Source: Macrostomum lignano (lineage: Eukaryota). From it: a DNA stretch of 45,542 bases. The stretch spans positions 1 through 45,542 of the forward strand of contig NIVC01004450.1 of NCBI GenBank assembly GCA_002269645.1, read 5' to 3'. Position numbers and translations under genes: made by a program. The notes beneath the pieces were generated by a model. It was not told the DNA's origin. It worked only from the letters and a program-made list of their open reading frames with translations, and did no database searches. Shown here piece after piece: positions 5,808 through 26,571 of this stretch (position 1 is its first letter; every line of letters begins with the position of its first letter).

Positions 5808-6028
5808 TTACTGTCTTTTTAATTTCCTATTTAATTCGTCGTTAATCGCTAGACGTTAAGTTCGTTCGAAGTGTGTTAATGCTTGTTTTTCACGCTTTAA
5901 AATATCACGCGCTTTCAAAAATACTATATCTTTTTACAAAAATCGCCTATTATGGAGAACAATCCTCAATTATACTAGATATTTGTTACATTGACAAAAT
6001 AATATTTAACTACCTTTTCTGAATAAAG

Positions 6029-7080
6029 CCATGGATTGCTCGTCTGCATTAAATTCAAAGTTTGCAATTTTGCCCCGCGAGGCCCCCGTTCGCATCGATT
6101 GGCTACTGAAGATTCCTTAATTAGTTGTCTATATGGTTATAAAAAAAGTTGTGTGTAATTGCTGCAATGGGTTGTTTCATACATAGTAAACCCTTCCCTG
6201 AGAGCTGTCAAATTGAGTCCGCATTTCGTCGGTCATGCAGTGTCCTGCAGATGGCTACAATGATTTAAAAAAAGCTGTAAGTACATGTACGTTGGGGCAT
6301 GCAGGCCAAAATCGTGCACATCAAATTTGTAATATGTAAACAACTGCGATGGCTTGTCTTTATTTGCTTATCCTGTCAAAGATGCACAAGGGCTGGCTAT
6401 TTGGCTCGACAACGTTGAAATTATTATAAAACAGATCGAGAATTCGCACCGACATATCAAAAAAGGTACACCTGTGTGAGCTAGCTCCATTCAAGAACGA
6501 AAATTTTCTTACTTTGGCACAGGGTAGCCAAGCTCAGCTGGTACATGAATGTACAGTAAGAGTAGAAAAATATTGAGACCGGGAGCGGTTCAGAAGTACG
6601 AAATGGCCCGATTCTCCACTAGTCCTGCAGCGCTTTGATGCTGAAGACTCATGCAGTTGGACAATAACACCGCGGAGATTTGCATCCATTTGCCAAACGA
6701 AGCTTAAAGCAGCTGATTCAAACAAAAGATCGAAGCCTTATTCTATCTAGAAAGCGACGCCATCGGGTCGAAAGATTTCTAAAGGCCAAGTGTAAAAGGC
6801 ATTTGCCTCTGGAGTAGTAATTCAGACAACTGAGGAGAAGTGCATGTGCGTGGAAAACTGAATGCGAAAGTTTCAAAGAAAATCTATTTAGTTAATCAGC
6901 TAGCTATAAAATTGTTACATGTATTCATATTTAGGAGACTTCCGTACATAAGAACTGTATCTTACAGTACGTTTTTGCCATAGACAACTAAGGAATCTTC
7001 AGTAGCCAATCGGTGCGAACGCGGGGGCTTCGCGGGGCAAAATTGCACCCCCAAATTTAAAGCAGAGGAGCAATCCATGG
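6029..7080. mobile_element. Non-autonomous DNA transposon with ~100-bp imperfect TIRs, superfamily uncertain
   Basis: 6029-6132 (CCATGGATTGCTC...GGCTACTGAAGATTCCTTA...GTTGTCTAT) is inverted at 6980-7080. Flanks are ATAA/TTAA-like, so piggyBac or Kolobok is possible but unproven. Confidence 0.7.
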
Positions 7081-7947
7081 TTTAATCATCCCAGCCTGGT
7101 TGAGCTCACGATTCTTTCACTGTCCACACGTACCAAGCTGATTTTGGAACAATAAGGGCCTCTATATGTGCCATGTACGAGCTATTCTTGCCAGACCAAT
7201 TAATTGAACGCAGCTAGGAGCCATAAAAGTCAAAGCGGTATAGCGAAAAAGCTGGCTATAGCGGCCGAGAAAGCGGATCCCAACGGACCGGCTTTGACAT
7301 CATGCAAAACTGCACATGCTATTCATGGAATAATACAGGTTCTTATAATACATCAATGCATGACTTTCTATTCTTTGCTGACATTCATTATTAATTGTCG
7401 CGGAGTCAAGAAACTAAACAACATATACTTTTGCTGCATTTTAGTAAGTTTTCTTAGTATAGTAATTAAATTTTACCTTTATTACATAGCTACTAGTATA
7501 TTTAAAATAAAAGTCTTTTACATCAAAATCTTCTGGAAGCCTATATTTACATGTACTATACTAAAAAATTTCAGAAAAGCCTGTGAAATAAAACTTTACG
7601 GCTCTATCTGTGAATCGAAATGACCAAGTTAATTGGTAGTGTTGATGTGGTTTCTAATATAGAAAATTTTGCAAAAAACTACACAGCTATCACAGAAAAT
7701 AACAATCGAAACTGCAGCTGCACCCTGCTGATCAGTGCTGATATGTGCGAGACGGATACCTTCTATATATATTTATTCTATCCAGAATACATGTACATGT
7801 ATATTACGATACTAACTATAAGCTGGAAAGCAGCTTGACACATTCTCAAAGGTATCAAGGCTATAGCTAATCATTACTTTTTAGACAGAAAGTATCTCTT
7901 GCAGACAGTTTGTTTAAACCATTTGGAAACAAAAAAATCTATAAAGT

Positions 7948-10577: not shown

Positions 10578-11357
10578 TATCGCTTTTGACGCTCTAGATA
10601 AGACTTAAGACATTCAAAATAAGACTGCATAGGATCGCAAGCAAGGCCAGGCTAGCCACGGCCAGAGCAAGCCCAGTCTTGGCTGCAGGGATGGCTTGGC
10701 CATAGACTAAAAAATTGAATATCAAAATGAGAATAAGACGCTCAATATGAGACCGGGAGTGAACGTAATTTATTTGCTTTTTGGCAGTCACCATACAAAC
10801 AGCTAAGGAGAAATTAGGCAATAAACAAGAAGCAGAATAGCATATCGAAATGTTTAGTCCATCACTGAAGTCAGCCTGGCGGACTGCGTTAGAAGGCCAT
10901 TCGATTTAAGCACCTGCCAAAGTGCCTCTGACAGCGGAGTTCCCATCTGGCCGCCTTCTCAGCTGTGATGACGAGGCCGACTGCCTCCCGTGCAATCCGC
11001 TCCAGCAGCATGAAGGTTGATCCATTGTTTACTGCGTCGATCAGATGCTGACGGTCTGCTGCAGGAATCGATGGTGCCATCACAGTGAAATCCAAGGGGT
11101 CAGATGCAACCCAAGGGGTGAAGAAGGAGAGCTGGCTGAGGGTCAGAGGGTTAGAGCGATATCTGAAGGCTTTCACACTCAGTCTCATATTGAGCGTCTT
11201 ATTCTCATTTTGATATTCCATTTTTTAGTCTATGGCCAAGCCATTCCTGCAGCCAAGACTGGGCATGCTCTGGCCGTGGCTAGCCTGGCCTTGCTTGCGA
11301 TCCTATGCAGTCTTATTTTGAATGTCTAAAGTCTTATCTAGAGCGTCAAAAGCGATA
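10578..11357. mobile_element. Foldback/MITE-like element with ~185-bp inverted arms
   Basis: 10578-10762 is inverted at 11172-11357 with few mismatches. Outermost bases are TA on both sides (possible TA TSD). Unique ~410-bp spacer. Confidence 0.75.
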
Positions 11358-11614: not shown

Positions 11615-11717
11615 AGTAGTATACGTTTTTTTGACACAAAGCCGATTTCCTTATGGCGAAATACATAGTAAGTACAGGCCCAAAAAATGGCAGAGTCCGA
11701 AATTTCATGTGCACGCA
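11615..11717 (+). repeat. Maverick left TIR
   Basis: AGTAGTATACGTTTTTTTGACACAAAGCCG...; first 83 bp identical to the reverse complement of the right end. Confidence 0.95.
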
Positions 11718-12172
11718 GTCTGAAATTCCATGTGCACGCAGTCTGAAATTCCAAGTGCACGCTAAATATCTTTTACGCAACGTGATTATTCAGACGAATT
11801 GCATATCCACCTGTCCAAAATACAAGTAACCGATTCTAGCAATGGTGACACAAACACACTTCAAAGGATTCCATTCAAGACAAATTTACTCCAAAGCTAT
11901 TCACACATTTCAAGTGTTATTGAAATATTGAAAACTTGTGAATATTATCACCCTTTTGAAGAAAGATAGTAAATGATCTATTCTTGAGTGCCTATAGAAT
12001 TTTTGCACCAACTTGAGCAGATGGTTTACAGATACTATGTCAACAACTGCGTCAACATGCTTCTTCTTTATACTATATATATATACGAACACACTGACAC
12101 AGAAAATATTAAATAACTTAAACCAAGTTTACATTATACTACTTGTTCAACTATACTTACATCTTAAGTGAA

Positions 12173-12824
12173 ATGAAGCGATCACGTCAGCAGGAATTGG
12201 CCGAGCGCTATGTTAAACAAGGTAAGATAATCACCTACTCTAGTTCAGTTTTCTTTTTTAGATTGACTGTTCGCTATAGTTTAGTTTCTAGATTGATTGT
12301 TAGTTCGGTTTCTGTTTAGACCGATCCTCTGTTTGTTCAGTCTCTAGATTGATTGTCTGCTAGTTCGGTTTCTGTTTAGACTAATACTCTGCTAGTTCAG
12401 AATTTCTAGATTGATTGTCTGCTAGTTCGGTTTCTGTTTAGACTGATTCTCTGCTAGTTCAGTTTCTATATACATTGTATACATGCACCTATACCAAATT
12501 TCCCTCATCTTATCCATTATTATAGCATTCAAGAATGGTTTCTTCACGCGGCCACCTCCAGATCAGTGCAAACGCATTTGCCACGACACCACCACATCCA
12601 ATTCTGCTGCAAGAGCATCATATTCTACATCTCTCGCCAGAGTAACCTCGATTCATGTCGAGAGACAGACAACTGAGCTAGATCGCATTTACACAAGAAC
12701 TGATGTTATTCAGTCAATTAGGCAGCAATCGAACCCACGACCAACTGACCAACTGCAGTATGCACCACCACCACCATCACCAACCAGCTACAATGACCCA
12801 CCCAACAAAGCAAACTTGCAGTAA
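12173..12824 (+). CDS. Putative spliced ORF of unknown function (exons 12173-12221 and 12526-12824, ~115 aa)
   Basis: ATG at 12173, donor CAAG|GTAAGA, polypyrimidine acceptor TTATAG|CA at 12525. Phase 1 matches on both sides, giving MKRSRQQELAERYVKQAFKNGFF... Confidence 0.45.
12240..12470. repeat. ~60-bp degenerate tandem repeat within putative intron
   Basis: Recurrent CTAGATTGATTG(TCTG)CTAGTTCGGTTTCTGTTTAGAC units. Confidence 0.75.
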
Positions 12825-13294
12825 GCCTACAAGTACCAAACCAACGACAGCAACTGAAACACCATCATCATCAATTGCCATTTCTACCCAAGTTCAACCG
12901 CTGCTAAACTCGCCAATTATTGTACAGAAGGACATCAAGTCTGTAAAAGTCTCTCAAATGAGCACAGGCTTCTACCAAGTAGAATTAGCAAAGACCTGTA
13001 ATACAACTCAAGTATTTGAATATTGGGACCTATCTTAAAAAGACATTTTTTCTAACTCTTCATAAAATTTTGCCAGCAATGTGTCCAAGTAATTGCTCTT
13101 TTAGTATATATCAAACAAGTCTGTAATCAATAATATAATCTCTATAAATTCATTATTCTAAAAAATTCTTTCAATTTTATTCACCATTCATTGAAATTAT
13201 TTAATTCAATAAAAAGTCAATATCTTGTACAGTCATCATTAAACAAAAATTATTAATCCATGCAAATAATTTTTTTTTCATACGTTTCTTTAGC

Positions 13295-14190
13295 CATGGT
13301 CTGGCTTTTGCCTCAACAGTATGATTTAGCTGTGGTCCAGCTTTTGCCTCAACAGTATGATTTAGCTGTGGTCCAGCTTTTGCCTCAACAGTATGATTTA
13401 GCTGTGGTCCAGCTTTTGCCTCAACAGTATGATTTAGCTGTGGTCCAGCTTTTGCCTCAACAGTATGATTTAGCTGTGGTCCAGCTTTTGCCTCAACAGT
13501 ATGATTTAGCTGTGGTCCAGCTTTTGCCTCAACAGTATGATTTAGCTGTGGTCCAGCTTTTGCCTCAACAGTATGATTTAGCTGTGGTCCAGCTTTTGCC
13601 CAACAGTTTTTAGCCGTGGTCCGGCTTTTTTGCCTCAGCAGTATGATTTAGCTGTGGTCTAGCTTAAAACTGCATCAACAGTGATTTAGCTATAGTCCAG
13701 GCTTAACTACCTCAACGATGATTTAGCTATAGTCAAGGCTTAACTGTCTCAACAGTAATTTTAGCTGTTGTCCAGACTTAACTGCCTCAACAGTGATTTT
13801 AGCTGTGGTCCAGGCAACTGTCTCAACAGGGATTTAGCTGTAGTCCGATTAGCTTAACTGTCCAGTTATTTAGCTGTGAGCCAAGCAGCAGCACCCGTCT
13901 CAACAGTGAGAATTAGCTATGGTCAGCTTTACCTCAACTGTGATTTGGCTGCTGTGGTCTAGCATAACTGACTCAACAGTAATTTTAGCTGTAGTCGTCC
14001 AGCTTAACCACCCGTCCAGTTTTATAACCATGGTCCAGCTTAACCACCGTCTCAACGTACAGCGATTTAGTCGTGGTCCAGCTTAACCGTCTCAACGTAC
14101 AGTGATTTAGCCATGGGTCTAGTAGCAATTAACCGTATCAATAGTGATTTAGCCGTGGTCCAGCTTAACTGTCTCAACACAGTAATTTAG
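13295..14190. repeat. 36-bp minisatellite inside the Maverick, perfect then decaying
   Basis: About 8 near-perfect copies of CAGTATGATTTAGCTGTGGTCCAGCTTTTGCCTCAA (13317-13600), followed by progressively diverged copies to ~14190. Confidence 0.95.
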
Positions 14191-14816
14191 CTTAGTCCAA
14201 ACAGCATTTGTGTGTCAACTGCACTGACTGCATGCGGTTATAGCAGCGGCAGTCATTATAGTCCCAACAAGCTGCGCGTCGCAGCATGATAGTGTAACTC
14301 TATATAGCTTCTGCTCAATATAGGACTGCAAAAGCTGAGTTACAACTATACCTTTTTCTGTTTGAAAAGTAACACTCTATATATAGGTTACTCAAGCAAT
14401 CTCTTGTCACCGTGCGAGCTAAAAAATTCCAACATGCAAGCAAAACTTTCAATAAATTAATTTCATAGCACCGCGTGCAGCTTATTTTTACTCTAAAATC
14501 CAAGATTGCTAATTTTTCAAGTCGCAAAATATTTTAATTACATTCTACTTGAGAACAAAACCAATCTAATGAAGCAGCAACCAGCAGTCTTCTTATTAAA
14601 CGCTTGCCATCGTGTTACTCTTGCAAATTTATAACTAGTGTGCCTAAGATTCATTAATTTTATTGTATAAAATATCAACCTACATTTGCGTAAAATTAGA
14701 CCTAATCATGCAACCCACCCTAGAAACTTATGCCACCTTTGGCACGCAACAATGTCTTAATCAGCACGCAACAATTAAATTTGTTTACTAGTTCACAAAC
14801 AGCATGCAATGCTTGC

Positions 14817-14824
14817 TATAAATA
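14817..14824 (+). promoter_or_regulatory. Canonical TATA box candidate upstream of the SSB-like gene
   Basis: TATAAATA 85 nt upstream of ATG 14902. Confidence 0.4.
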
Positions 14825-14901
14825 CAAGACCCGAAATGTCAATTTTTCATGAGCTCAATCATTACAGCAAAAGAAATACTATATTCAATTGCTTGTAAGA
14901 C

Positions 14902-16100
14902 ATGGCAGCTTGCATCAAGACGGAGTCAATTGTACGCTCCGACTCGAGTCCGATTTTTTACGTTGGAGAGCAGTCTACAACCACGACTGGTTCGTCCTGC
15001 CAGTTTCGATCTATTGCGTGGAAACCATCAATCGAGTGTACAAAATGGTACCCAATTATATTGCAAACCAAGGCTCCAATGGAGCTTTTTCGTGGAATCG
15101 CAGAAAGGCCAGAGCTCGATCATCCGTCTTGCAGACACGACTCTCGCGACGCAGTAAGTGTCCAATTTCATCCAGACAGCTGCGATAAGGAACTCTTCCA
15201 CTCTCTCCGGTGAGCACCATATTAAATTTATACAATTAATTTTAGGAAACTATATTCATAATTTATATAATGTTTTGCAGTCAAGTCGAAAAAGGTCTAT
15301 CGGTCAAGTTGAACGAGATTCAAGATGCTCGACCCTTGGCACGACTAACAAAACCAGCTCATCAGCATGCTAACGACGTCCTCGAGTTTGTGCCTCAACA
15401 ATGGCTGGCTATAAAGCCTGCTTACCCTTGTGCCACAATCAGGATCAGCAACGATCATCCACACGGGAAGGAGGTGTCCATTTCCGATTTCAAAGGTGTC
15501 AGCGGTACCTACCAAATGACAGTGCAAGCAACGAGCTTGTATTGTCCAAAAGGCTGCCTCGTCTGGCGCATTACATTCGCTGTGCGCTCTCTGACACTCA
15601 TAGAATCTTCCGACAACATGTTGCAGCGCCTCGACATGTTCAAGGGAGTGCTTGCACACCTACCCGCGACCAAGTCAGCAATTAGAAGCAGGAGTCCGTC
15701 CCCAACATCTACCTGTGAGCAAGAAGAAGCAAATGAACAAAGCCTGCAGAATTCAAGCCAGGTGACACCTGCCAAGTCACCTGCAAAGCGTCGGTCTACC
15801 ACCACCGTATCGAAGAAGTCGACTACATCGAATGCAGCGCCAGCCTCTATTGAACCGCCGCCTAAAAAGCAAGTTCGAAAACGCAGCGGTGCAAAACAGC
15901 AAAACAATTCTGCCGAAGCTGGTGCAGATGGCACAGACTGGGTGGAGGCTCCACCAGCAAAGATCTTGGTGAGTACACCTGCCTCTGGAACCAGGGTAGC
16001 GTCCAAGGAGACAGCATTTTTAAAGCGTGCTGCTGCGGACGCTACTACAGCTAGCGTGTCTTCATCGGACGACTCGTACAGCAGCTCTGATGATGAGTAA
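14902..16100 (+). CDS. Spliced 375-aa protein, candidate OB-fold ssDNA-binding protein (exons 14902-15209 and 15281-16100)
   Basis: 71-nt intron CG|GTGAGC...TTTTGCAG|T with matching phase 2. PIILQT..M..FRG and GTYQMTVQATSLY...WRITF patterns recall T7 gp2.5/NCLDV-type SSBs. Basic linker and acidic tail SSSDDSYSSSDDE. Gene structure is well supported; the function is inference. Confidence 0.6.
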
Positions 16101-16310
16101 CAAAATTTTTGACTAATTTTATCCAAGTTTTAACTAACTTATTCCACTATATTTATCAAATTTTTGGCTAGGGAAATATTATTTTTTAGGGAAAAGCTCA
16201 AAACATTTTTTGCTACTCCTTGTACGCTAACCAGGTTTTGTAATTTAATATTAGAATTTACGATAGTATAGTCATGTTTAACTTTTCTTATTATTTATTT
16301 TCCGTTTTAG

Positions 16311-16868
16311 CGACTTGTCCTATTAATAGTTACTGCGAGTCTGAAGCTGCACCCGTTTGAAAAATTTGATTTAAAGCAGACCAAACAGAAGCTACAGACC
16401 AGAAACCGGTTTTGCAAACTATTCCTAAGCCGACCAACAATGCTAAAGACAATTTATTCAAATGCTAAAATCCAACTTTATCCAGCAGGAAAACTAACTA
16501 TATATGGCTGTAAATCAAATTCTCAGATAGTCTCAGTTTTACGATTTATCAACGACACTATTAATTGTGTAGATTTTGATTCAGTAAAAATTCAGAGCAG
16601 TACCTATGTCGGCTTTATTGGTCATCTTTGGCCAAAATTCGGTTTCTCTAGTCTAAAAAGATATGCAGGCTACTATTCGAATTATCTGGTTGGATACGAT
16701 GCAGAAAATTTCCCACAAGCAGTTTCTGTTAGATCAGCATCAAAACCAAGGCTTTTTTGTAACATATTTTTTTCGAAAAAGTTTGTTATTATGGGCGTTC
16801 AAAACACTCATGAATTGAATAATATTCTTAACCATGTCAAGGATTTTTTAATCTCTGTTAATAACTAA
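16311..16868 (+). CDS. Divergent TATA-binding-protein (TBP)-like protein, full two-repeat core; 5' exon not identified
   Basis: Frame is open from the splice acceptor TTTTAG|CGA at 16311. Repeat 1: LIVTASLKL..KFDLKQ...AKIQLYPAGKLTIYGCKS (TBP: NIVSTVNL..KLDLKT...TTALIFSSGKMVCTGAKS). Repeat 2: KIQSSTYVG...YDAENFPQ...KPRLFCNIFFSKKFVIMG (TBP: KIQNMVGS...YEPELFPG...KPRIVLLIFVSGKVVLTG). Confidence 0.8.
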   Translation, partial: RLVLLIVTASLKLHPFEKFDLKQTKQKLQTRNRFCKLFLSRPTMLKTIYSNAKIQLYPAGKLTIYGCKSNSQIVSVLRFINDTINCVDFDSVKIQSSTYVGFIGHLWPKFGFSSLKRYAGYYSNYLVGYDAENFPQAVSVRSASKPRLFCNIFFSKKFVIMGVQNTHELNNILNHVKDFLISVNN

Positions 16869-17090
16869 ACTTAACAAGTAAACAATTGCTGTCAAATCGC
16901 AGTTGCGATGCATTCTTTTACAAACATTTTGTCTTTTTTTTTTATTTACCAATTGTTTTCTCTAATAGTAAACGTGTCAGCTATACCTATAACTAACCAA
17001 ATCATCATTTTTCTTACAGCCGCAAATGACAAACCGGATCATCTATTAATATTATGCTCGATACGCTCGTTGTCGAGCTAGGTGCACACA

Positions 17091-18152
17091 ATGCCGCGTG
17101 CACAATGCCAAATCTGCAGAAAAAAGTTCAGTAATCAAGCCGAGCTGCATGCTCACTCGCATGGTGCTTGTTTTTCACCGCAACGATTACTGACCGGATC
17201 GCTGCAAAACCTGATCGAAAACCCACCAGATGGGTGGTCCATCGCTTTGCGCGAGTCAGCTCATCGTGGTCGGGTAAATTTTGTCGAATTTACTCCCACT
17301 CTTGAACAACAAGGCAACAGCTCTGGCGAGTTACTTCCTGGCGAGTTGATTGCGTCTTTAAGAGAACCAATATTTAAAATATTGGAAAAAATTGGCTCAC
17401 CCAGTTTATTAATAAGAGTCTGCTTTCACTTGAAAGTGACACTATTTCGACCGAAAACAGCAGCAGACGACAACGATGGCTCGAGCAGCGAAGAGATCAT
17501 TTCGGTCTATTTTAATACCAACATTGCGACAATATCATTTGATGAGACGATTGCAAACAGTGACATGCTGTTATCTCCCGAGGCCTACAATGACTGGTTC
17601 GCACGCGTTATTAATCAGTTGTTAATAAAAATTGACAATTTTCAATCTCGAGGTAGTAATTGGCAATATAGAGCAATCGAGCAGCTAGACTTGATGCTCT
17701 GCGTTTATCGCAAAAGCCATGCAAGCACACTGTCAACAAATACGTCCCACGGTGGTGTGGGGGCGGGCGGCGGCAGTGGTGGTGGTGGCGGCGGTGGTGG
17801 TGGTGGTGGTGGCGGCGGTGGTGGTGGTGGTGGTCGGCGGCGGCGGCGGCGGCGGCGGGCGCGGGGAGTCCGGTCCAGTCCGGTCCGGTCCAGTCCGGTC
17901 CGGTCTGGTTAAGCAGCAATCGTTTAAAGTTCCAGTCTCAATCGGTCGCAAAGCTGGAGCAGTACTGCTTCTAAAGCCGCACAGAGCAGTTTAAAGCATC
18001 AAGACTATTTAAGAGTCTTACACAAGCGACAACTTGTGTTTTCGCGCATGCAGTCCATTCGTTCTCGAAAACAGAAAGTTTTTTTTGATGCAACAAAGAA
18101 AACTTGCACTAAGCTTCTTCGATACGAAGCGATCCTGGACAAGTTCAATTAA
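17091..18152 (+). pseudogene. Protein-primed DNA polymerase B remnant: N-terminus fused to extreme C-terminus
   Basis: C2H2 finger CQICRKKF...HAHSH and the Maverick pPolB N-terminal motif F.SRGSNW...I..L.L. After a microsatellite, a shifted frame (~17965-18152) reads SKAAQSSLKHQDYLRVL...SIRSRKQKVF, resembling the pPolB C-terminal tail. No exonuclease or polymerase motifs lie between. Confidence 0.7.
17752..17907. repeat. Compound GGT/GGC, CGG and GTCCG/GTCCA microsatellite
   Basis: (GGY)n, then (CGG)n, then pentamer repeats, seen directly. Confidence 0.9.
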
Positions 18153-18481
18153 TTCGCTACCCTTTGGACACTGGCACTTGGCTAATTAATTAACAATATG
18201 CTCTGATCTCTTTTGTTGTACAAAGTAATAGCATGCTATAGAAGACTGTAACCCATCATTAATTTTTTCATTGATCATTATTTACAATAAATAAATGATA
18301 CCGGCATTCGTTTAAATTATAATTTTAGCACTTTTTTGTGTTTAATTATTTGAAAAAGTATATTTTTTATAGTTAGATTCTCAAGACTAAGCTTGTGTTT
18401 GTAGTAGACGTAAATGTAGTGCTATCGTTCATGTTTCAAGAAAAAAAACTTTTTTTTAAACTTTCAGCTACAAGAATCGAC

Positions 18482-18964
18482 ATGAATCCCGAGCAGCAGC
18501 AGCAACAACAACTAACTGATCGTAAGCTTTTAGTTGAACGTCTATACGATTCGGCAACGATTCCGACCCGAAAAACTGTCGGGTCGATCGGGTATGATCT
18601 TTGCGCTGGCGTCGATGGTACCATTCCGGCCTACGAGTCCCGGAGTGTGCGAACCGGACTCAAAATTCGCTTACCGCCTGGTACCTATGGCAGGATAGCG
18701 GGACGTTCCAGCATGGCTCTGCACAGCTTATTTGTTGGCGGTGGCGTAATCGACCCCGACTATACTGGTGAAATCTGTATAGTCTTGTTTAATTACAGTC
18801 CGGAAGACTTTGAGTACTATGCCGGGCTCAGTATTGCACAACTGGTTCTGGAGCAGGCCGTGCTTGCTTCAGTCTATGTGACTGAAGCAGACAATTCGAT
18901 TCGGATGATTGAGCCGCCGACCAAGCGGCGCGGCTTTGGCGGCTTTGGCAGCACTGGCCAATAA
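18482..18964 (+). CDS. dut: dUTPase (trimeric type)
   Basis: All five motifs: GYDL, GRIAGRSS, GVIDPDYTGEI, IAQLV, RRGFGGFGSTG. Likely ATG at 18482; the ORF caller used an upstream GTG. Confidence 0.95.
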   Translation: MNPEQQQQQQLTDRKLLVERLYDSATIPTRKTVGSIGYDLCAGVDGTIPAYESRSVRTGLKIRLPPGTYGRIAGRSSMALHSLFVGGGVIDPDYTGEICIVLFNYSPEDFEYYAGLSIAQLVLEQAVLASVYVTEADNSIRMIEPPTKRRGFGGFGSTGQ

Positions 18965-19055
18965 GTATAATAATAATAATAAACTGATTTTTTTCTTTGG
19001 TGATTGGTGCACTATGCGAGAGCTTTGTAAATACTATAAGCAATTTTAAAAATTT

Positions 19056-19499
19056 ATGCCTAAAATATATGTTGTAAAAATGTCTCCAGCGAAAGATCGA
19101 GGTTTTAAAAAGAAAAAGAAGAGCATTCGTAAAAAGAAGAAATCTATTAGAAAGATTAATAAAAAGCAACAAGGTTATGGTGTCGTAAATTGGTTAATTA
19201 ATCATTTACCATTTGAAGCACATTTACCCGGCGGATATCAGTTTTGTGGTCCAGGTACGCAACTGCAAGCTAGGCTAGCAAAAGGACAACGAGGAATTAA
19301 TCGGCTTGACAATTTGTGCATGCTTCACGACGTGGCCTATGATAAAAATTCTGACGTGCAAGAGAGGTTAAAAGCTGATAAGCTATTAGAATCTGGTGCA
19401 CGAGAGATTGCCCACGATCCGTCTACTGGTTGGAAAGAAAAACTAGCTGCGAAGTTGGTTACCAAGGTTATGCAAGTTAAGCAACGCCTTATTGCTTGA
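19056..19499 (+). CDS. Parvovirus-VP1u-type phospholipase A2 virion protein (PLA2X-like)
   Basis: HLPGGYQFCGPGT calcium loop and LDNLCMLHDVAY catalytic HD. Lys-rich N-terminus followed by QQGYG. Confidence 0.9.
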   Translation: MPKIYVVKMSPAKDRGFKKKKKSIRKKKKSIRKINKKQQGYGVVNWLINHLPFEAHLPGGYQFCGPGTQLQARLAKGQRGINRLDNLCMLHDVAYDKNSDVQERLKADKLLESGAREIAHDPSTGWKEKLAAKLVTKVMQVKQRLIA

Positions 19500-20211
19500 A
19501 AATGCAGCAGCCATACAATATGCAACTAGCTCACGATTCTACATTTATTATGCTGGACCTTCAAACTCGGGTAAAACTGAATGGACGTTGCGTTTGTTGA
19601 CTGAACGAAAAGAATTATTTGATAAAAAACCGTGCCGTCTTGTTTGGTGCCATGGATCAAGTTTGAAACCAGACGATCAACAACGAATTAGAACATGCTG
19701 GCAAAAAAGCGGTCTTGACCCTATTGTTTTTGTACCCGAATTCACACCACAGATGATTAATCGTTTTTTACCACACGATTTGGTTGTTGTTGACGACTTG
19801 CAAAGCGAGATTGCTAAGTTGCCAGAATTTACTAGTATGTTTACAAAGCATGCGCATCATATCCCTTTGACTTGTCTGTACCTTTGTCAAGGTCTTTTTA
19901 ACAAGTCTGATCCAGAAGCACGCATGCGAAGTTTATCAGCTAGTTATATTTGTCTAACTCGTAGTGTGCGCGATCGAACCACAGTTGAACATCTCGGTCG
20001 ACAAATGTATCCGCGTAATAGTAGGTTTCTAGTGAATGTGTATGAAGACGCAACAAATAACAAACCTTTTTCATATTTATTCATTGACCTGCGGCAAGTG
20101 ACACCAGATTTTTTACGATTGAGAACAGGAATATTTCTGGTGATGAACAAGTTGTCTATACTCGTGAATGTGATGCAAAGTTTGTGTAATATTATTATAA
20201 GCAAATTATAA
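19492..20211 (+). CDS. FtsK/A32-like DNA packaging ATPase
   Basis: Walker A GPSNSGKT, Walker B VVVDDL, and C-terminal KPFSYLFIDL...RLRTGIF typical of Maverick ATPases. No in-frame ATG before Walker A. Confidence 0.92.
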   Translation: MLENAAAIQYATSSRFYIYYAGPSNSGKTEWTLRLLTERKELFDKKPCRLVWCHGSSLKPDDQQRIRTCWQKSGLDPIVFVPEFTPQMINRFLPHDLVVVDDLQSEIAKLPEFTSMFTKHAHHIPLTCLYLCQGLFNKSDPEARMRSLSASYICLTRSVRDRTTVEHLGRQMYPRNSRFLVNVYEDATNNKPFSYLFIDLRQVTPDFLRLRTGIFLVMNKLSILVNVMQSLCNIIISKL

Positions 20212-20246
20212 ACTGTTGTCAATATTAGTTTGTGTTTTATTTCAAA

Positions 20247-21236
20247 ATGAGTTTTTACGTTTTTTTGCCGTCAAACGATATCAGTTACGAAACCAACTCG
20301 CCTAATGAATTTCGAGTGCGACTAACTGAACCAATAAATTTATTGAACGGATTCTTCGAGGTTGCACTAGTTGAATTACTGTGCCATGGAGCAATTACGA
20401 CGCCAAATGCTCATCGTGAGCGTCGATTTGAAGTTCCATATTTTGCGGACATTGACTCAATAATACGATTAAAGAAAAACTATTGGGGTCGTGTTTGGGC
20501 AGAGGCAGACTTGGATGCTTACGTTTCCTGGCAACCGTCTGGTACAGATGAAAAATTTGCCTGGCTTTTACGAAATTCAGGCGAAAAAACTATTGGATTA
20601 GAACTACCAGTTACATTTATGGACGCTTTCAAATTTGACTCTTGGAAGAAACTTTCTGGACTTGTCTCGGAAAAATTATCAAAACCTGCCGCTGGTAGTG
20701 TACAACCACCGGATGGTTCATACTTGGATTTGATAAAAAGTCTCGACAATACTCTAGCGCTAGTACCTGAGAACTATTATGTTTTTTATTGTGTTCTATC
20801 GCCTGGTGAAGCTATACGACTTGTTTCGCATGGAGACTATCTTCGAAAAACGGAAGGAGAAGTGTACATCAAAGTACACCAATATTGGTTGAGAAATCGT
20901 GTTTGGCGCATTAACAAAACCTACTTGGATGCTGTGCTACCTTCTCCGATGCCTAGTAAAACGGTTTACATGTACTGTTACACAGATATAATCGAGTATC
21001 AAGCAGTGGGAAGTACATCAGTACCGTTGCTTCGAGTTGTGGAACTCCAACAAAAGAAAAACGGAGAACTTATACGCGATAGCAGTGCATTGCAAACACC
21101 CTACTACTTGAAAACAAATCGACAACAAATTCACGAGATTTCGATTCGACTATCGGACCAGCGCGGAAAACCGTTTAATTTTGATCCGGGAGCACACGTT
21201 GTTGTCGTACTGCATTTTAAACATAGGTCGGACTAA
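20247..21236 (+). CDS. Minor capsid protein (penton, single jelly-roll)
   Basis: N-terminal MSFYVFLPSN...FRVRL..PI.L...FEVALVE and C-terminal YCYTDIIEYQ.VG....PLLR...ISIRL.DQ.G..F.F....VVVVLHF match Maverick pentons. Confidence 0.88.
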   Translation: MSFYVFLPSNDISYETNSPNEFRVRLTEPINLLNGFFEVALVELLCHGAITTPNAHRERRFEVPYFADIDSIIRLKKNYWGRVWAEADLDAYVSWQPSGTDEKFAWLLRNSGEKTIGLELPVTFMDAFKFDSWKKLSGLVSEKLSKPAAGSVQPPDGSYLDLIKSLDNTLALVPENYYVFYCVLSPGEAIRLVSHGDYLRKTEGEVYIKVHQYWLRNRVWRINKTYLDAVLPSPMPSKTVYMYCYTDIIEYQAVGSTSVPLLRVVELQQKKNGELIRDSSALQTPYYLKTNRQQIHEISIRLSDQRGKPFNFDPGAHVVVVLHFKHRSD

Positions 21237-21292
21237 TTTATAAGCAAAGATTAATTGTGTAATAGAAAATTTTGTGAATTTGTTTTGTAAGA

Positions 21293-21725
21293 ATGAGCGA
21301 ACTAACAGAAAAAGGAAAACAAAATGCTCGCTCATTGTGTCAGTGTGCTTTTTTACTACAAATTGTTTATCGGCTAAAGCATCCAAAGCAGAGAAAAAGT
21401 TTTTTACAAACACTTTCAGAGTCGGAGATACGATGTCTAGTAGACTTTCTGTTTAATATTATTAGTGGACGTATTAAAATTAGTAACTGTAACAAAAGAC
21501 GACTCGAGAAGCATCGCAGATATAGCTATACGCCAGCTTTTGGAACAGAAGACTCCAATTACTGCAAAAAGGAAAATACTTGTCCAACACGGATGATTTT
21601 TACCTTTTTTGGCTCCAATTATTGCCGCTCTACCTGCTATAAGCACTGCGCTTGGGATAACGTCTGGAGTAGTTGGTACCGCCGCGGGAGCAGCGAATTT
21701 AATACGATCAATTCAACGAAAGTAG
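21293..21725 (+). pseudogene. Maverick small basic core-type protein (PW/cupiennin-like; naming uncertain) with frameshift and nonsense codon
   Basis: RKSFLQTL...IRCL...NII.G.I....KRRLEKH, then a +1 shift near 21520 gives AIRQLLEQK..ITAKRKILVQHG*FLPFLAPIIAAL...RK*. TGA at 21594 sits where GG|F is expected. Confidence 0.8.
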
Positions 21726-21735
21726 TAGGAATATA

Positions 21736-22425
21736 ATGCGAACTAACGAGAGTAGTAGTTTTCAACGAATGTATCTAGTACCTGAATCTGTGTATCAATC
21801 TGCATGTCAAGGTGCAGAGCAAGGATCGTCACCAACTGCTGAGACACCTCGAAAAACTGAAGTTTTAGACGCACCGCAAGATGCTCTGGCAAAAAATATG
21901 GTGGAAATGAGAGACCAAATGGATAACTTGGACAAGGAAATGGAAAAGGAGCCAAATTACACAGCTCAATTGAAACGAAGCAGATTGGAAGACAAACTTT
22001 TAAAATTGCGCAAAGTCTATCGCACTGGAGACGAGGACAATCTGTCACTTGTTCGCAAAGGGACTACTGTAAGAAGTTCATATGCCAGCGAATCAAGGGA
22101 AATTCCTAAAGTTTTTTTACCACGTTTCGAAGCTCTCGCTCAAAACCTATTTTCGGACATGGACAAGAATGCAGAACCAATGCTGGCTAATTTGACTGAT
22201 GCCGAGATACAAGATCTCATGGAATATGTTGTTCGAGACAGACCGCTTAAGCGACACGAGACTCAACCGCCTAGTGGACTAAAAACATTTTTAGACTTTC
22301 TTCGAAAACGTGGAATCGCAGCAAACCAAATCGGGCGTCATGTACGAAACGAGCTAATGTCTGCTCCAAAAACTGTTGCAAAGGAGGATCTTAGTCTGTT
22401 TGAAAATTATCAAACACTGAATTAA
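21736..22425 (+). CDS. Conserved Maverick ORF (PZ-like; naming uncertain), 229 aa
   Basis: N-terminal RMYLVPE and C-terminal PPSGLKTFLDFL...QIG patterns recalled from Maverick ORFs; position in the virion block. Confidence 0.55.
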   Translation: MRTNESSSFQRMYLVPESVYQSACQGAEQGSSPTAETPRKTEVLDAPQDALAKNMVEMRDQMDNLDKEMEKEPNYTAQLKRSRLEDKLLKLRKVYRTGDEDNLSLVRKGTTVRSSYASESREIPKVFLPRFEALAQNLFSDMDKNAEPMLANLTDAEIQDLMEYVVRDRPLKRHETQPPSGLKTFLDFLRKRGIAANQIGRHVRNELMSAPKTVAKEDLSLFENYQTLN

Positions 22426-22526
22426 GTTGTTTTAAATGTTTTAACAAAATTGATTCGAGCACTATAAGCTTTTTAAAAAGGTTACTTTTTTGTTTATTAA
22501 AAATATATAGTTTAATAAGACAAACC

Positions 22527-22715
22527 ATGTCATCTATCTTCCAAAAACTTTTGATTCGTCTCTGTGAGTTTTTTTGCATAAAATCTGAATGTGTGCCGTT
22601 TCTGGGAAAGGAGCACAACGAGGATACTGACGGAGATTCGATCGAGGCTTCGTTCTTTTGTTGCAACTGTCAAACGACTAGCATCAATCTAACTGATGAT
22701 GAAGCGAGTGCGTAA
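22527..22715 (+). CDS. Small Cys-rich/acidic ORF, 62 aa, unknown
   Basis: ATG-initiated, preceded by TATAAGC at 22463, and overlaps the integrase start as neighbouring genes do. Confidence 0.35.
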   Translation: MSSIFQKLLIRLCEFFCIKSECVPFLGKEHNEDTDGDSIEASFFCCNCQTTSINLTDDEASA

Positions 22716-23856
22716 GGAAATTGAAGAATTTTTGACGGATTCTTTTTTTAACTTGAACAAGCCTACTTCATTTAGTGGTAACAAGACTATACTTGTTCGT
22801 TAAGTACGTAAAAAGTTTCCACAGATTACGAACAAAGTTGCAAAGCGCGAAGTTGATAATTGGGTGCGATCAACAAATGAGCATCATTTATTTCGAAAAA
22901 CACGACGAAACTTTCCAACTCCAAAAATTAGTGTGCCACCAGTTGCAAAGTTTCAGTTTCAAATCGATTTGGCAGATTTACCTCAATACAAGACGGAAAA
23001 TCGAGGTTATCGTTACATACTTGTTCTTATCGACTGTTTTACTAGAGTTGTACGACTAAGACCATTGCGTACAAAGAAGCCTTCAGAAGTTAGTCAAGTA
23101 TTACTAGAGATTTTTCGAAGTGGTTTTAAGCCTGTTTATTTACAAGGTGATGCTGGTATGGAGTTTCTCGGAAGAGCTACACGTCAAATGCTGAAACAGG
23201 AAGGAGTTCGATTTTTTGTTAGCCAAAGCAATTACAAGGCAAGCATGGCTGAACGATTTATCCGCTCGTTAAAGGAACGTCTATTACGATACTTTCGAGC
23301 AAAAAATTTACCTCGATGGTTTGACATTTTGCCACAATTGGAAGATAATTTCAACTCTAGTCCTCATCGATCCTTGAGTGGAGAAACACCAAAACGTGTA
23401 GAGACAGACCCGCATTTACAAGGAATTTTGTGGGACAAAATGTTTGCGAAGTCGTACACTAAAAATAATGAGAATAAATTTAAAGTTGGTGATTGGGTTA
23501 GAATTACACGACGTCGAGGAACATTTGAAAAAGGATACACTACGACTTGGAGTAATTCAAAATATCGCATTCAGCGTGTACACTTGACAGACCCGCCAAT
23601 GTACGAATTAGTGGACCCTGAAGATGGATTTGAAGTGCTGAAAGGAAGGTTTAACCAAGCGGAACTAATGTTGGTAAACGAGACAGATGAAACACCTAAT
23701 GAAATTGAAAAAGTTATTGAAACTGATCGAGCGAAAAATGGAAGTCGTCTGTATCTAGTAAAATGGAAAGGTATGCCAATCTCAAGAAGTCAGTGGTTAA
23801 ACGAAAATGATCTTGACGCAAAGACTGCTAAACTATTTTCTAAAGTGTATAAGTAA
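22696..23856 (+). pseudogene. Retroviral-type (rve) integrase with C-terminal chromodomain, premature stop at codon 36
   Basis: DDE motifs QIDLADL, LQGDAGMEF and SMAERFIR; chromodomain YLVKWKG...SQW. ATG at 22696 is in frame and encodes the conserved F...KPTSFSG N-terminus, but TAA lies at 22801-22803. Confidence 0.92.
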
Positions 23857-23897
23857 CACATGAATTGGGATTGCATGACGAAGAGAAGACTGTTGAA

Positions 23898-24356
23898 ATG
23901 GATCCTATTTTTGCTTTTTATTCTGGTCCGAATAGATCTGCTGAAGGTGGAGGTGGATATGGCATTCCTGTTTACGAAGGTTACGGTTTTTTGTCAAATT
24001 TGGCGGACAGATTGGTGTATCCTGTACTACGCAACGCAAAGAAAGATTTCTTGGATCGTGGTCTGGAGTATTTGAAAAGTGCGACAGCAAAAATTGGTAT
24101 GGGTCGGAAGCGTCACTTGGACACAGAATCGAGCGAAGAGATGTTTAATACACCTGCAGTCTCGAGACCAAAGCGAAGGAAAAGAACCAGTGGAGTGGCT
24201 ATAAGCTTAGGAAAGAAGAAACGGCAAAAGAAACGACGAACAAGACAGTGTGGAAAGGGACGCGTGAACAAAAGAAAACGCAAGATTACCGGTGGTATAG
24301 GAAAACGTCGAACTGCTACTGCAAGCAAGAAACTTTTTAGTCTGTTTGAAAAGTAG
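23898..24356 (+). CDS. Basic Gly/Arg/Lys-rich core (genome-condensing) protein
   Basis: Y..P...G.GYG.PVY.GYGF..L...L.PVL N-terminus and highly basic C-terminus, located immediately before the capsid gene. ATG at 23898. Confidence 0.7.
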   Translation: MDPIFAFYSGPNRSAEGGGGYGIPVYEGYGFLSNLADRLVYPVLRNAKKDFLDRGLEYLKSATAKIGMGRKRHLDTESSEEMFNTPAVSRPKRRKRTSGVAISLGKKKRQKKRRTRQCGKGRVNKRKRKITGGIGKRRTATASKKLFSLFEK

Positions 24357-24357
24357 C

Positions 24358-25680
24358 ATGAACCATTTGCTTGGACCTGATATTGCTGCTCTTAAAAGTG
24401 AATTGTCGCTATTTGATCAAAGTCCTGTTCAGTTTAGTGTTTTGGATAATCGATATACTAACATTCAACCGCAACATGGTATTACAAAAGGATCACCTAT
24501 CGAATTTGAAGTTGTGCCTGCAGGCGATTTGTATTTGGATCTACAAGAAACTGTGCTCACGGTATGCTTCAGCGTTAGTGATAGTGAAGGTGAACCTATA
24601 GATGCAACGAAAAATTTTGTTTGTTTGAATAATTTGGTTATTGGAACATTGTTTGAAGACGTTCAATTTACTATTGGCGATACTGTAGTTGAAGGTGGTA
24701 GTTTTATGTATCCATACAAGGCTATGCTTCTCACATTACTGGAATATGGACATACAGCTCAGAAGGCTGGTTTACTGCCGTGGGGGTTTTACAAGGATAC
24801 AGCTGGTAAAATGAATGCAACAAGTGAAAACGATGGACGAACAAAGAGGCAGGCGCTCATTGCTAACAATAGGCGGTGCACTGTATCGGGGCCGTTATTC
24901 TTGGATTTGTTTCGTCAGCCTCGGTATCTACTATCAAAGACACCACTATGGATCAAGCTCATACCGGCAAAAAGTAAATTTGTCCTGAGCGGGTCAACAT
25001 TAGAAGCTGGTGCGGTTTTAAAAGACTATGAGATCAAGTTTTTGCGTGCAGAACTACGATTGCGGTTTGTTCAACCCTCGCCGAGTGTTATCAGTGCACA
25101 TGCTCATGGACTTAAAAGTCACAATGCATTATATCCGCACCGAAGTCTAAGCCTTGGTACGTTTACTATACCCCGAGGATCGTCTAGCCATACGCATGAA
25201 AATTTGTTTCCTAGTGGGGTACCACGGCTTTTATTGATGGCAATCGTAAGCAACAAGGCATTCAATGGAAGCATGGACACAAATCCGTTCAACTTTGAGC
25301 ATGCAAATGTGAGCAGCATTGGTGTGTTTGTGAATGGAGACTCGGTACCATCGCGTCCGCTGCAGACAAACTTTGGAGATGATTGTGTGACAGAGTATAA
25401 TTTTTTGCTACAACAGCTTGGAATCTATCTACAGGGACGAGATATTGGATTTAATATGCTGGATTACGCCAATGGTTACTCAATTTTTGCATTCAGTCTT
25501 GGAAGTGAACCTGGTGTCGGACGGGGAGTGCAACTGTATAAGGAAGGAAATGTAAAACTAGAGTTACGCTTCAATGCTGCAACTAGTACCGTGTACAACG
25601 TCATATTTGGAGGTATATTTGACAAGCAACTGCAACTGACTGAACTTCGCGACATTGTTCCTGGCACAGTATGGAAGTAA
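24358..25680 (+). CDS. Major capsid protein (double jelly-roll, hexon-like)
   Basis: ELSLF...PVQ.S...PIEF.V...D.YLDL..T N-terminus; GPLFLDLF.Q.RYL; FNF.H.NV..I...VNG; ~440-aa open frame. Confidence 0.93.
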   Translation: MNHLLGPDIAALKSELSLFDQSPVQFSVLDNRYTNIQPQHGITKGSPIEFEVVPAGDLYLDLQETVLTVCFSVSDSEGEPIDATKNFVCLNNLVIGTLFEDVQFTIGDTVVEGGSFMYPYKAMLLTLLEYGHTAQKAGLLPWGFYKDTAGKMNATSENDGRTKRQALIANNRRCTVSGPLFLDLFRQPRYLLSKTPLWIKLIPAKSKFVLSGSTLEAGAVLKDYEIKFLRAELRLRFVQPSPSVISAHAHGLKSHNALYPHRSLSLGTFTIPRGSSSHTHENLFPSGVPRLLLMAIVSNKAFNGSMDTNPFNFEHANVSSIGVFVNGDSVPSRPLQTNFGDDCVTEYNFLLQQLGIYLQGRDIGFNMLDYANGYSIFAFSLGSEPGVGRGVQLYKEGNVKLELRFNAATSTVYNVIFGGIFDKQLQLTELRDIVPGTVWK

Positions 25681-26234
25681 TTGATTCTATCCTAGATCGT
25701 GGTGTAACAGATCGCTTCCTTCGCAATGTTGTATCGAAATTGTGCGCACATTTTTTAAATGTTGTATTTCTTGGTGTTTTTCCTCAAAACTTTGTTGGTG
25801 GACTTGCACGCTTACCTTTAGACGGTAAAGACTATTTTTTTATCGTTAATACTGACGTCTCCAACCTGCCCGGAAAACATTGGGTATGCGTTTGGGTTTA
25901 TGGTCATCGAGCAGGTCGCGGTAGCAAACGACTTGGTGAATATTTTGATTCTCTTGGTCTAGTACCATTGCCAAGAATAGCAAAATGGCTAGGAAAAGAA
26001 TGTGGAAATTCGAAAAATTGGTGTTATAGTCGCTTTGCTATCCAAGACCCACAGAGTGGAAGTTGTGGATTTTGGGTAATTTTTTATATTTTTCATAAGT
26101 TGACTATCAGAGGAAACCTAGAGTGTTTTATTCGAAGCGTTTTTAAACGGAATATAATTCGCACTGGTTCGTTTCGATACTTGTATGCTAAATTACGCAA
26201 TTTTGTTTTACGAGTGCTGCCTCAATATTTGTAA
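25671..26234 (+). CDS. Adenain-like cysteine maturation protease
   Basis: FLGVFP, IVNTD....GKHWV (His), EYFDSLG (Asp), Q...SGSCG (Gln/Cys); overlaps the MCP stop codon. Confidence 0.93.
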   Translation: MEVIDSILDRGVTDRFLRNVVSKLCAHFLNVVFLGVFPQNFVGGLARLPLDGKDYFFIVNTDVSNLPGKHWVCVWVYGHRAGRGSKRLGEYFDSLGLVPLPRIAKWLGKECGNSKNWCYSRFAIQDPQSGSCGFWVIFYIFHKLTIRGNLECFIRSVFKRNIIRTGSFRYLYAKLRNFVLRVLPQYL

Positions 26235-26468
26235 ACTCGCTAATTTGTGCGTCAAATTGTGTTTGTATCTAGTTGAAATATACAATACTGCTTGAAAAGA
26301 AGAATTTAAATGCGTTAAGTTATACGCGAAATAAGCTTTGTGTCAAATTGAATTTTGGTTGGGCTTGTAATTAGCAGCATTCATTGCGGATAGAATTTAG
26401 GTGGATAGACAGGTGTTTGCGTAAAAGTGATTCAGCTAATTGGTTAATTCATTGCGTAAAAGCTAGTT

Positions 26469-26571
26469 TGCGTGCACGGCAAATTTCAGACTCTGCCATT
26501 TTTTGGGCCTGTACTTACTATGTATTTCGCCATAAGGAAATCGGCTTTGTGTCAAAAAAACGTATACTACT
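26469..26571 (-). repeat. Maverick right TIR
   Basis: Reverse complement of 11615-11717 with 4 mismatches, ending ACTACT. Confidence 0.95.

What the first reader, a model, noticed from the sequence alone, without database searches (positions are those of the whole stretch)
14902..16100. Intron-containing candidate T7 gp2.5/NCLDV-type ssDNA-binding protein
Seen: two ORFs called separately join through a clean 71-nt phase-2 intron into 375 aa with an acidic tail. Established: strand-displacing protein-primed replicons (adenovirus, phi29) need an SSB, and NCLDVs have a T7 gp2.5-like OB-fold SSB family with acidic tails. Inference: the P.ILQT..M..FRG and C-terminal beta-strand patterns fit that family, which is not a standard Maverick gene.
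Basis: partly seen in the sequence, partly recalled or inferred. Interest (0 to 1): 0.7.

Follow-up and report, generated by a model that had tools for sequence, protein, structure and literature searches.

The report
Giant-virus-type SSB in flatworm Maverick
A virus-like transposon (Maverick) in a flatworm genome carries a spliced gene whose predicted structure matches the single-stranded-DNA-binding proteins of giant viruses, a replication helper for which our searches found no earlier report in these elements.

Summary
A 71-nt GT-AG phase-2 intron (15210-15280) joins two exons into 375 aa, identical to a Macrostomum lignano UniRef record. It is the best of 84 possible in-frame splice pairs against relatives. 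The fold call also holds. The AlphaFold2 core (about residues 15-228) best matches the African swine fever virus SSB CP312R (Z 12.7; Foldseek E 7e-5), then T7 gp2.5/Enc34 SSBs (Z 7). All 50 listed viral-structure hits are giant-virus (Nucleocytoviricota) proteins; ESM Atlas agrees. Corrections: (1) the tail is net basic, and only its last ~20 residues are acidic/Ser-rich; (2) this 15-kb copy has no detectable DNA polymerase, only a stand-alone terminal-protein gene next to a TBP-like gene and a dUTPase, and no target-site duplication; (3) sequence relatives are few (M. lignano models plus three unnamed proteins), so this is a lineage-specific accessory gene, not a general Maverick SSB. Best reading: a giant-virus-type SSB captured by a flatworm Maverick lineage, coating displaced strands during protein-primed replication driven by a polymerase encoded elsewhere. 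ssDNA binding itself is untested. Our literature searches found no earlier report in Mavericks.

The parts
14902..15209 (+). SSB exon 1 (residues 1-102 plus 2 nt): N-terminal extension, first OB strands, start of the long capping helix
15210..15280 (+). 71-nt spliceosomal-type intron, phase 2, GTGAG...CAG, 21% GC, lying inside the long helix H96-115 of the model
15281..16100 (+). SSB exon 2: rest of the OB core (to ~residue 228), then a disordered tail with a K/R-rich patch (residues 261-310: 12 K/R, 1 D/E), a motif shared with sister proteins (~residues 321-348) and an acidic/Ser end
11615..11717 (.). Left terminal inverted repeat, starts AGTAGT
26469..26571 (.). Right terminal inverted repeat, ends ACTACT; the flanks show no 6-bp target-site duplication
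16311..16868 (+). TBP-like ORF directly downstream of the SSB
   Evidence: Pfam TBP E 2.2e-7; PDB TBP hits E 3e-4 to 7e-3
17091..17912 (+). C2H2 zinc finger plus stand-alone PRD1-type terminal-protein (little-finger/PAD-like) domain; no polymerase follows
   Evidence: AF2 single-sequence model pLDDT 59; VIA: 10 of the top 11 rows are Y-family polymerase chains, best Z 7.4; BFVD top hits an adintovirus C2H2 protein E 1e-6 and a MELD-virus PolB E 1.5e-4; PMC11071308
18431..18964 (+). dUTPase
   Evidence: Pfam E 2e-29
19056..19499 (+). Phospholipase A2-like protein
   Evidence: Pfam PF08398 E 3.6e-9
19447..20211 (+). Putative packaging ATPase (Walker-A-like motif visible); the label is recalled and no family match confirmed it
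   Evidence: no confirming match
20247..21236 (+). Putative minor capsid protein (label recalled from size and position, unconfirmed)
   Evidence: no match
22804..23856 (+). Retroviral-type integrase with chromodomain
   Evidence: Pfam rve E 3.9e-8, Chromo E 1e-6
24358..25680 (+). Putative major capsid protein (label recalled, unconfirmed)
   Evidence: no confirming match
25671..26234 (+). Adenovirus-type maturation protease (weak match)
   Evidence: Pfam Peptidase_C5 E 0.04

Best explanation
[quoted passage not shown] It was acquired, most likely from a giant virus, by a lineage of Macrostomum Mavericks (polintoviruses). Shown: the gene structure, the fold class by prediction and structure search, and its place inside a TIR-bounded element beside TBP-like, terminal-protein and dUTPase genes. 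Inferred: host RNA polymerase II transcribes it and the host spliceosome removes the intron. The basic tail patch brings it into the nucleus. The OB core coats the strand displaced during protein-primed replication from the terminal repeats, using conserved aromatic (W40, W144, Y180, Y190) and basic (R36, R64, R82, R103, K107, R124, K148) residues, and may help fold that strand back into a TIR panhandle. The tail motif recruits partners or links monomers. This copy has no detectable polymerase core, so replication would need a polymerase from an autonomous sister element.
For: Fold: CP312R Z 12.7 stands 5.6 Z units above the next row, and rows 2-6 are all proteins of the T7-type SSB group or herpesvirus ssDNA-binding/annealing proteins (one search adds 7yeq Z 11.3). 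Foldseek E 6.7e-5 and 2.1e-4 to CP312R. BFVD: 102 hits at E<=1e-3, best 1e-9, with Nucleocytoviricota in all named rows of the 50 listed. ESM Atlas features, which do not use the AF2 model: top clusters 0.95/0.95/0.94 are mostly Nucleocytoviricota, plus clusters with DUF2738 (10-13%), DUF5871 (13-17%) and Pox_I3 (12%); shuffled proteins reach 0.95 once in 100. The long helix directly after strand E83-87 is the stated hallmark of T7-type SSBs (PMC5686142). Relatives are 23-35% identical yet keep these aromatic and basic columns. A chimeric M. lignano model (P0012) runs SSB C-half, then deoxynucleoside kinase, then the same terminal-protein domain (30% identity, E 1e-30), so a diverged sister element keeps the SSB beside nucleotide-supply and terminal-protein genes.
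Against: No sequence-profile match to DUF2738, DUF5871, Pox_I3 or any SSB family (Pfam 0 relevant hits for 6 of 6 proteins; PHROGs 0 of 6; PDB profile search). Structural identity to the hits is only 5-16%. The model rests on 6 sequences (mean pLDDT 60.8, core blocks mostly 77-93) and rmsd to CP312R is 4.6 A. A shared fold does not show function. The tail is net basic, unlike T7/Enc34. No polymerase motifs in six frames of the element and no polymerase remnant in 44 small ORFs. No target-site duplication, so the copy may be dead or rearranged. The direction of transfer was not tested with a tree.
Confidence: 0.72

Rival explanations
1. Same fold, but the main job is strand annealing or recombination (TIR panhandle formation, end repair, recombination between copies) rather than supporting processive strand displacement.
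For: The herpesvirus annealases BALF2 (Z 5.3) and ICP8 (Z 4.8) follow the T7-type SSBs. T7 gp2.5 has roles in recombination (PMC2553585, abstract start in listing). This element has TIR-like ends but no TSD, which would fit recombination between copies.
Against: The closest matches are compact replication SSBs (CP312R, gp2.5, Enc34), not the large annealases. The two roles are not exclusive.
Confidence: 0.12
2. It belongs to a captured giant-virus transcription/nucleotide module (with the TBP-like gene and dUTPase or dNK) and binds ssDNA or RNA for gene expression or genome packaging, not for replication.
For: It sits directly upstream of a TBP-like ORF. Baculovirus LEF-3 appears at Z 4.3. This copy has no polymerase.
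Against: All top structural matches are replication-type SSBs. The neighbour after TBP is the terminal protein, and in P0012 the SSB lies beside dNK and terminal protein without TBP in that model.
Confidence: 0.08
3. A passenger: an SSB by descent but now inert cargo on a defective copy, or kept by the host for another use.
For: No polymerase core and no TSD. Several sister gene models look truncated or internally deleted (P0006, P0010, P0011, P0012). The left arm of the element is tandem repeats and short ORFs.
Against: The ORF is intact with host-consensus splice sites. Sister proteins at 23-35% identity keep the predicted binding residues and a tail motif, which implies long selection in the lineage. 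This rival concerns this copy, not the family.
Confidence: 0.3
4. There is no intron: two separate ORFs, or a frameshift or assembly error.
For: The only record of the joined protein is a computational gene model; no reads were available.
Against: Best of 84 splice pairs, no gaps across the junction in 6 of 6 proteins, and retention of the segment would insert about 24 residues into a conserved helix. GC drops to 21% and the splice motifs are host consensus. The two exons each hold part of one barrel.
Confidence: 0.03

Closest known systems
African swine fever virus CP312R (PDB 7yeq, 8hw5) and the Nucleocytoviricota gp2.5-like SSB family (ranavirus P31K, pithovirus, mimivirid and marseillevirus proteins in BFVD)
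   Same: Best structural match over nearly the whole core, including the N-terminal extension (model 1-211 vs chain 2-279, Z 12.7); long low-confidence tail; ESM features. CP312R is reported to bind ssDNA (PDB title; PMC9963768 passages).
   Different: 8% identity; no Pfam match; encoded by a 15-kb integrated Maverick of an animal; contains a spliceosomal-type intron; tail net basic.
T7 gp2.5 / Enc34 ORF6 / DUF2815 T7-type SSBs
   Same: OB barrel with a long helix directly after the second strand.
   Different: Lower similarity (Z 7.0-7.5). For 1je5 and 4klk the alignment starts only near model residue 50. No long acidic tail (Enc34: 16 of the last 29 residues D/E; here 7 of the last 30).
Mriyavirus (gamadvirus) PEV_26 SSB
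   Same: T7-like OB-fold SSB predicted in a small (35-45 kb) eukaryotic dsDNA virus (PMC11253617, passages). A DUF2738/5871 protein is also listed in the legend of a figure of Phaeocystis PLV and NCLDV-like dwarf virus contigs (bioRxiv 10.1101/2022.07.28.501842; figure not visible, so which element carries it is unknown).
   Different: Mriyaviruses are related to Nucleocytoviricota, not to Mavericks; not compared directly here.
Mavericks / Polintons (Polintoviricetes), including the coral polinton with a split terminal protein
   Same: AGTAGT...ACTACT ends, TIRs, integrase, protease, putative capsid and ATPase genes; stand-alone terminal protein as in the Stylophora polinton and adenoviruses (PMC11071308).
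   Different: No detectable pPolB core, no 6-bp TSD, an intron (intact vertebrate Mavericks are intronless, PMC8097293), and SSB plus TBP-like accessory genes.
SSBs of protein-primed replicons (PRD1 P12, Bam35 B35SSB, adenovirus DBP, phi29 p5)
   Same: Proposed role: protecting the displaced strand (PMC11886824, passages).
   Different: None of these appears among the top structural hits listed. P12 is described as a distinct OB-like fold. That adenovirus DBP has an unrelated fold is recalled, not tested.

Membership tests
T7 gp2.5-type / NCLDV SSB | OB-fold barrel matching family members | tested here: met
   CP312R Z 12.7, rmsd 4.6, 185 aligned; gp2.5 Z 7.0, rmsd 6.0, 147 aligned; Enc34 Z 7.0-7.5; predicted model only
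T7 gp2.5-type / NCLDV SSB | Long capping helix immediately after strand beta2 | tested here: met
   H96-115 follows E83-87 in the model; the feature is from PMC5686142; strand numbering assigned by me from element order
T7 gp2.5-type / NCLDV SSB | Long acidic C-terminal tail (phage T7-type) | tested here: not met
   Tail net basic, pI 9.3; only the last 20 residues acidic/Ser-rich; last 15 residues of 5 relatives hold 2-6 D/E
T7 gp2.5-type / NCLDV SSB | Aromatic stacking and basic residues lining the ssDNA cleft | tested here: inconclusive
T7 gp2.5-type / NCLDV SSB | Sequence-profile match to DUF2738 / DUF5871 / Pox_I3 / DUF2815 | tested here: inconclusive
   No HMMER match in 6 of 6 proteins; language-model features do point to clusters with these families
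T7 gp2.5-type / NCLDV SSB | Preferential ssDNA binding | not testable with these tools
   needs EMSA or anisotropy
Maverick / Polinton | TIRs with (AGT)2...(ACT)2 ends | tested here: met
   motif from PMC8097293
Maverick / Polinton | 6-bp target-site duplication | tested here: not met
   flanks differ
Maverick / Polinton | Retroviral-type integrase | tested here: met
   Pfam rve above cut-off
Maverick / Polinton | Protein-primed family-B polymerase | tested here: not met
   Terminal-protein domain only; no catalytic motifs (motif patterns recalled); no remnant in 44 small ORFs
Maverick / Polinton | Double jelly-roll MCP, minor capsid protein, packaging ATPase, protease | tested here: inconclusive
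   ORFs of fitting size and order; only the protease has a weak Pfam hit (E 0.04); the others had no confirming match and were not folded

The most novel reading that the evidence does not exclude
A clade of flatworm Mavericks has swapped its accessory replication kit for giant-virus parts (NCLDV-type SSB, TBP-like factor, dUTPase or dNK) and kept a free-standing terminal protein. It has given up its own polymerase as a lineage trait rather than by decay of one copy, is expressed through host cis- and perhaps trans-splicing, and replicates with a helper or host polymerase. It would also imply a still undescribed giant virus infecting Macrostomum as the donor.
Probability: 0.15. Interest if true: 0.82.

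Novelty: new variant of a known kind. Interest (0 to 1): 0.58.

Why it matters
Mavericks are thought to replicate by protein-primed strand displacement, but no SSB turned up in the polinton papers we searched. This gives a concrete, intact candidate that can be expressed and assayed from a laboratory model animal. It points to gene flow between giant viruses and an animal Maverick, and suggests that unannotated accessory ORFs of other Mavericks should be screened by structure. The intron shows the element's genes adapting to host splicing. The limits: the SSB class is well known, similar proteins are already described in small mriyaviruses, and the gene appears confined to one lineage.

Tried and rejected
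Pfam, PHROGs, NCBIfam and PDB sequence searches gave nothing informative for the protein or its relatives. The UniRef automatic names (VASt, YDG, DUF3668, DUF3074, DUF3699 domain-containing) disagree with each other, have no Pfam support and are rejected. No relative was found in bacterial/archaeal genomes (50 pattern matches, 0 confirmed, close relatives only) or in 50,697 phage records. Co-folding the core (1-232) with the tail (316-375) gave no verdict (score 0.00, alignment not used); it is no evidence either way. The ESM Atlas search of the terminal-protein ORF gave only leads under 0.9. The host trans-splice acceptor motif lies within 120 nt upstream of 4 of 14 start positions checked, against 0.225 expected per 120 nt (about 3 of 14), so it is not enriched overall. 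Literature: searches combining polinton/Maverick with SSB, OB-fold, ssDNA-binding, gp2.5, CP312R, P31K, DUF2738, TATA or Macrostomum lignano listed no paper describing such a gene in a Maverick; only listings and abstract starts were seen for most. Term searches in PMC12220804, PMC8502044, PMC11071308, 10.64898/2026.10.13.758929, 10.1101/2023.08.22.554363 and PMC8097293 and in supplements of PMC12220804, PMC10120064 and PMC8502044 found no SSB annotation. Kazlauskas and Venclovas 2012 was not held and is known here only as cited. Unchecked: subscription journals, Repbase, bioRxiv supplements, figures, viral and metagenome contig collections, cluster member accessions, the genomic context of sister copies, and transcripts. 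No tree was built, because no giant-virus SSB sequences were on hand.

Full report
Observation. The window holds two same-strand ORFs, 14902-15213 and 15246/15270-16100. A GT donor at 15210 and an AG acceptor at 15280 define a 71-nt, phase-2 intron of 21% GC between exons of 49% and 51% GC, with stops in both exon frames. Searching each exon separately against 5.8 billion proteins returned the same single hit: a 375-aa Macrostomum lignano UniRef record (A0A1I8JAC6, P0003), identical to both exons. This names the host and shows that an independent gene model chose the same junction, but it is not transcript evidence. The donor and acceptor match the most enriched M. lignano cis-splice motifs (PMC8629364, passages), and 4 of 84 in-frame GT..AG pairs have both.

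Homology test of the junction. A search of 1.84 billion representatives gave 6 proteins at E<=0.001, the query included. A profile search added further M. lignano models (7 hits among 8000 candidates scored). P0004, P0007 and P0008 have no name. Read through with X at the junction, the proposed pair scored best of 84 against a profile of 5 relatives (169.7 bits against 150.4) and against the two relatives not shown as UniRef records (116.3 against 98.7). P0003 and the near-duplicates or partial models P0006, P0010, P0011 and P0012 were left out of the profiles. Residues 95-115 align without a gap in 6 of 6 rows, and the split codon falls on a column that is R/K in 6 of 6. Caveat: several relatives are themselves gene models from the same species.

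Fold. AlphaFold2 on the 6-row alignment gave mean pLDDT 60.8, with a reasonably confident core (about residues 15-228, most 10-residue blocks 77-93) and a disordered tail. Foldseek against the PDB ranked ASFV CP312R first (E 6.7e-5, 2.1e-4), then T7 gp2.5, Enc34 SSB and their DUF2815-type homologs in ranks 3-10. VIA-align over 48,161 representatives gave CP312R Z 12.7 (rmsd 4.6, 185 aligned, model 1-211), 4klk 7.1, gp2.5 7.0, Enc34 7.0, BALF2 5.3, ICP8 4.8 and LEF-3 4.3 (one search agrees). The tool warns that Z under 8 alone may be a common arrangement, so the case rests on CP312R and on the functional uniformity of the top rows. BFVD returned 102 hits at E<=1e-3; every named row among the 50 listed is a giant-virus protein, best E 1e-9. 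ESM Atlas features, which do not use the model, put residues 1-232 next to Nucleocytoviricota clusters (0.94-0.95), some carrying DUF2738, DUF5871 or Pox_I3 in 10-17% of members. The long helix H96-115 directly after strand E83-87 matches the hallmark of T7-type SSBs stated in PMC5686142 (passages); the intron interrupts this helix. Against this: no HMM or sequence match to any SSB family, and identities of 5-16%.

Tail. Residues 229-375 are net basic (pI 9.3), with a K/R-rich stretch at 261-310 and an acidic/Ser-rich last 20 residues. A motif around residues 321-348 is shared with P0004, P0006, P0009 and partly P0011. Nuclear import and partner binding are inferences.

Context. The gene lies in a 14,957-bp element bounded by ~103-bp TIRs with AGTAGT/ACTACT ends and no target-site duplication. 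Downstream on the same strand are a TBP-like ORF, a zinc-finger ORF, dUTPase, a PLA2-like protein, integrase and a weakly matched protease. The ATPase and capsid labels are my recall and were not confirmed. The zinc-finger ORF 17091-17912 folds into a beta-alpha-beta-beta-alpha-beta domain. Its best PDB matches are Y-family polymerase chains (10 of the top 11 rows, best Z 7.4), and its best viral matches are an adintovirus C2H2 protein and pPolB proteins. This is the signature of the PRD1-type terminal protein, which is free-standing in adenoviruses and in a coral polinton (PMC11071308, parts 2-3 of 6 read). No polymerase motifs were found in six frames, and no remnant in 44 small ORFs of the left arm and intergenic gaps. 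A chimeric M. lignano model, P0012, runs SSB C-half, deoxynucleoside kinase, then a homolog of this terminal-protein domain. So the SSB/terminal-protein neighbourhood recurs in a diverged sister; whether that sister has a polymerase could not be seen.

Mechanism. Most likely the protein coats the displaced strand during protein-primed replication from the TIRs, as SSBs do in PRD1-type systems (PMC11886824, passages). The polymerase would come from an autonomous sister. Gene structure, fold class and context are shown or well supported; binding, expression and role in replication are inferred. Rivals are an annealing role, a transcription or packaging role with the TBP-like gene, and inert cargo on a dead copy.

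Known and new. T7-like SSBs are known in several Nucleocytoviricota families and predicted in mriyaviruses (PMC11253617, passages). A DUF2738/5871 protein is named in a figure legend on Phaeocystis PLV and dwarf-virus contigs. TBP-like genes are named in a legend on non-animal MELD viruses. Intact vertebrate Mavericks are intronless. Eight library searches and term searches in six papers and three sets of supplements found no SSB described in a Maverick; subscription journals, Repbase, figures and bioRxiv supplements were not visible. The protein works like, and very probably descends from, the NCLDV gp2.5-type SSBs. It fails the T7 acidic-tail criterion and has no profile match, so I file it as a new, diverged variant in a new kind of carrier. 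Its narrow distribution keeps it from answering how Mavericks in general protect ssDNA. Interest 0.58.

Noticed in passing
window 17091-17912 (+): Stand-alone zinc-finger/terminal-protein gene with no polymerase core anywhere in the element. By eye, similarity to the sister model P0012 continues past the GGC/GGT repeat (~17750-17990) in a different reading frame, so this ORF may be broken there.
   Followed up: partly
window 16290-16868 (+): The TBP-like reading frame opens at 16311, 129 nt before its first ATG (16440), right behind a pyrimidine-rich TAG acceptor-like site. The M. lignano spliced leader ends in ATG (PMC8629364), so trans-splicing or an unseen upstream exon could supply the start. 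Untested.
   Followed up: partly
window 11615-26571: All recognisable genes of the element lie on one strand, and the two flanks show no target-site duplication, suggesting a rearranged or recombinant copy.
   Followed up: partly
window 12277-12468 and 13289-14191: Tandem arrays (32/62-nt and 36-nt units, degenerate towards 14190) fill the left arm where a polymerase gene might be expected.
   Followed up: no
window 14862-14867, 17014-17019, ~18462-18467: The host trans-splice acceptor motif [T/C]TNCAG lies shortly upstream of the SSB, terminal-protein, TBP (first ATG) and dUTPase (second Met) starts, but before none of the 7 downstream-module ORF starts checked; overall count near chance.
   Followed up: partly
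window 2226-4323: A mariner-like transposon (223-nt inverted repeats, broken transposase ORFs at 2556-3971 on the minus strand; label recalled from motifs).
   Followed up: no
window 6023-7086 and 10578-11357: Two small elements bounded by inverted repeats (MITE-like); the second lies just left of the Maverick.
   Followed up: no
window 27454-29520 (+): Intronless 684-aa otopetrin-like ORF (Pfam E 2e-5, below cut-off) with an in-frame QDQP-type repeat, just right of the element.
   Followed up: no
window 30225-31289 (-): Tyrosine-recombinase-like fragments (weak DUF3504, phage integrase and QRICH1 matches), possibly a Crypton.
   Followed up: no
window 33900-45542 (-): Host 2-oxoglutarate dehydrogenase E1-like exons (label recalled from sequence) whose introns are filled with long tandem-repeat arrays.
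   Followed up: no
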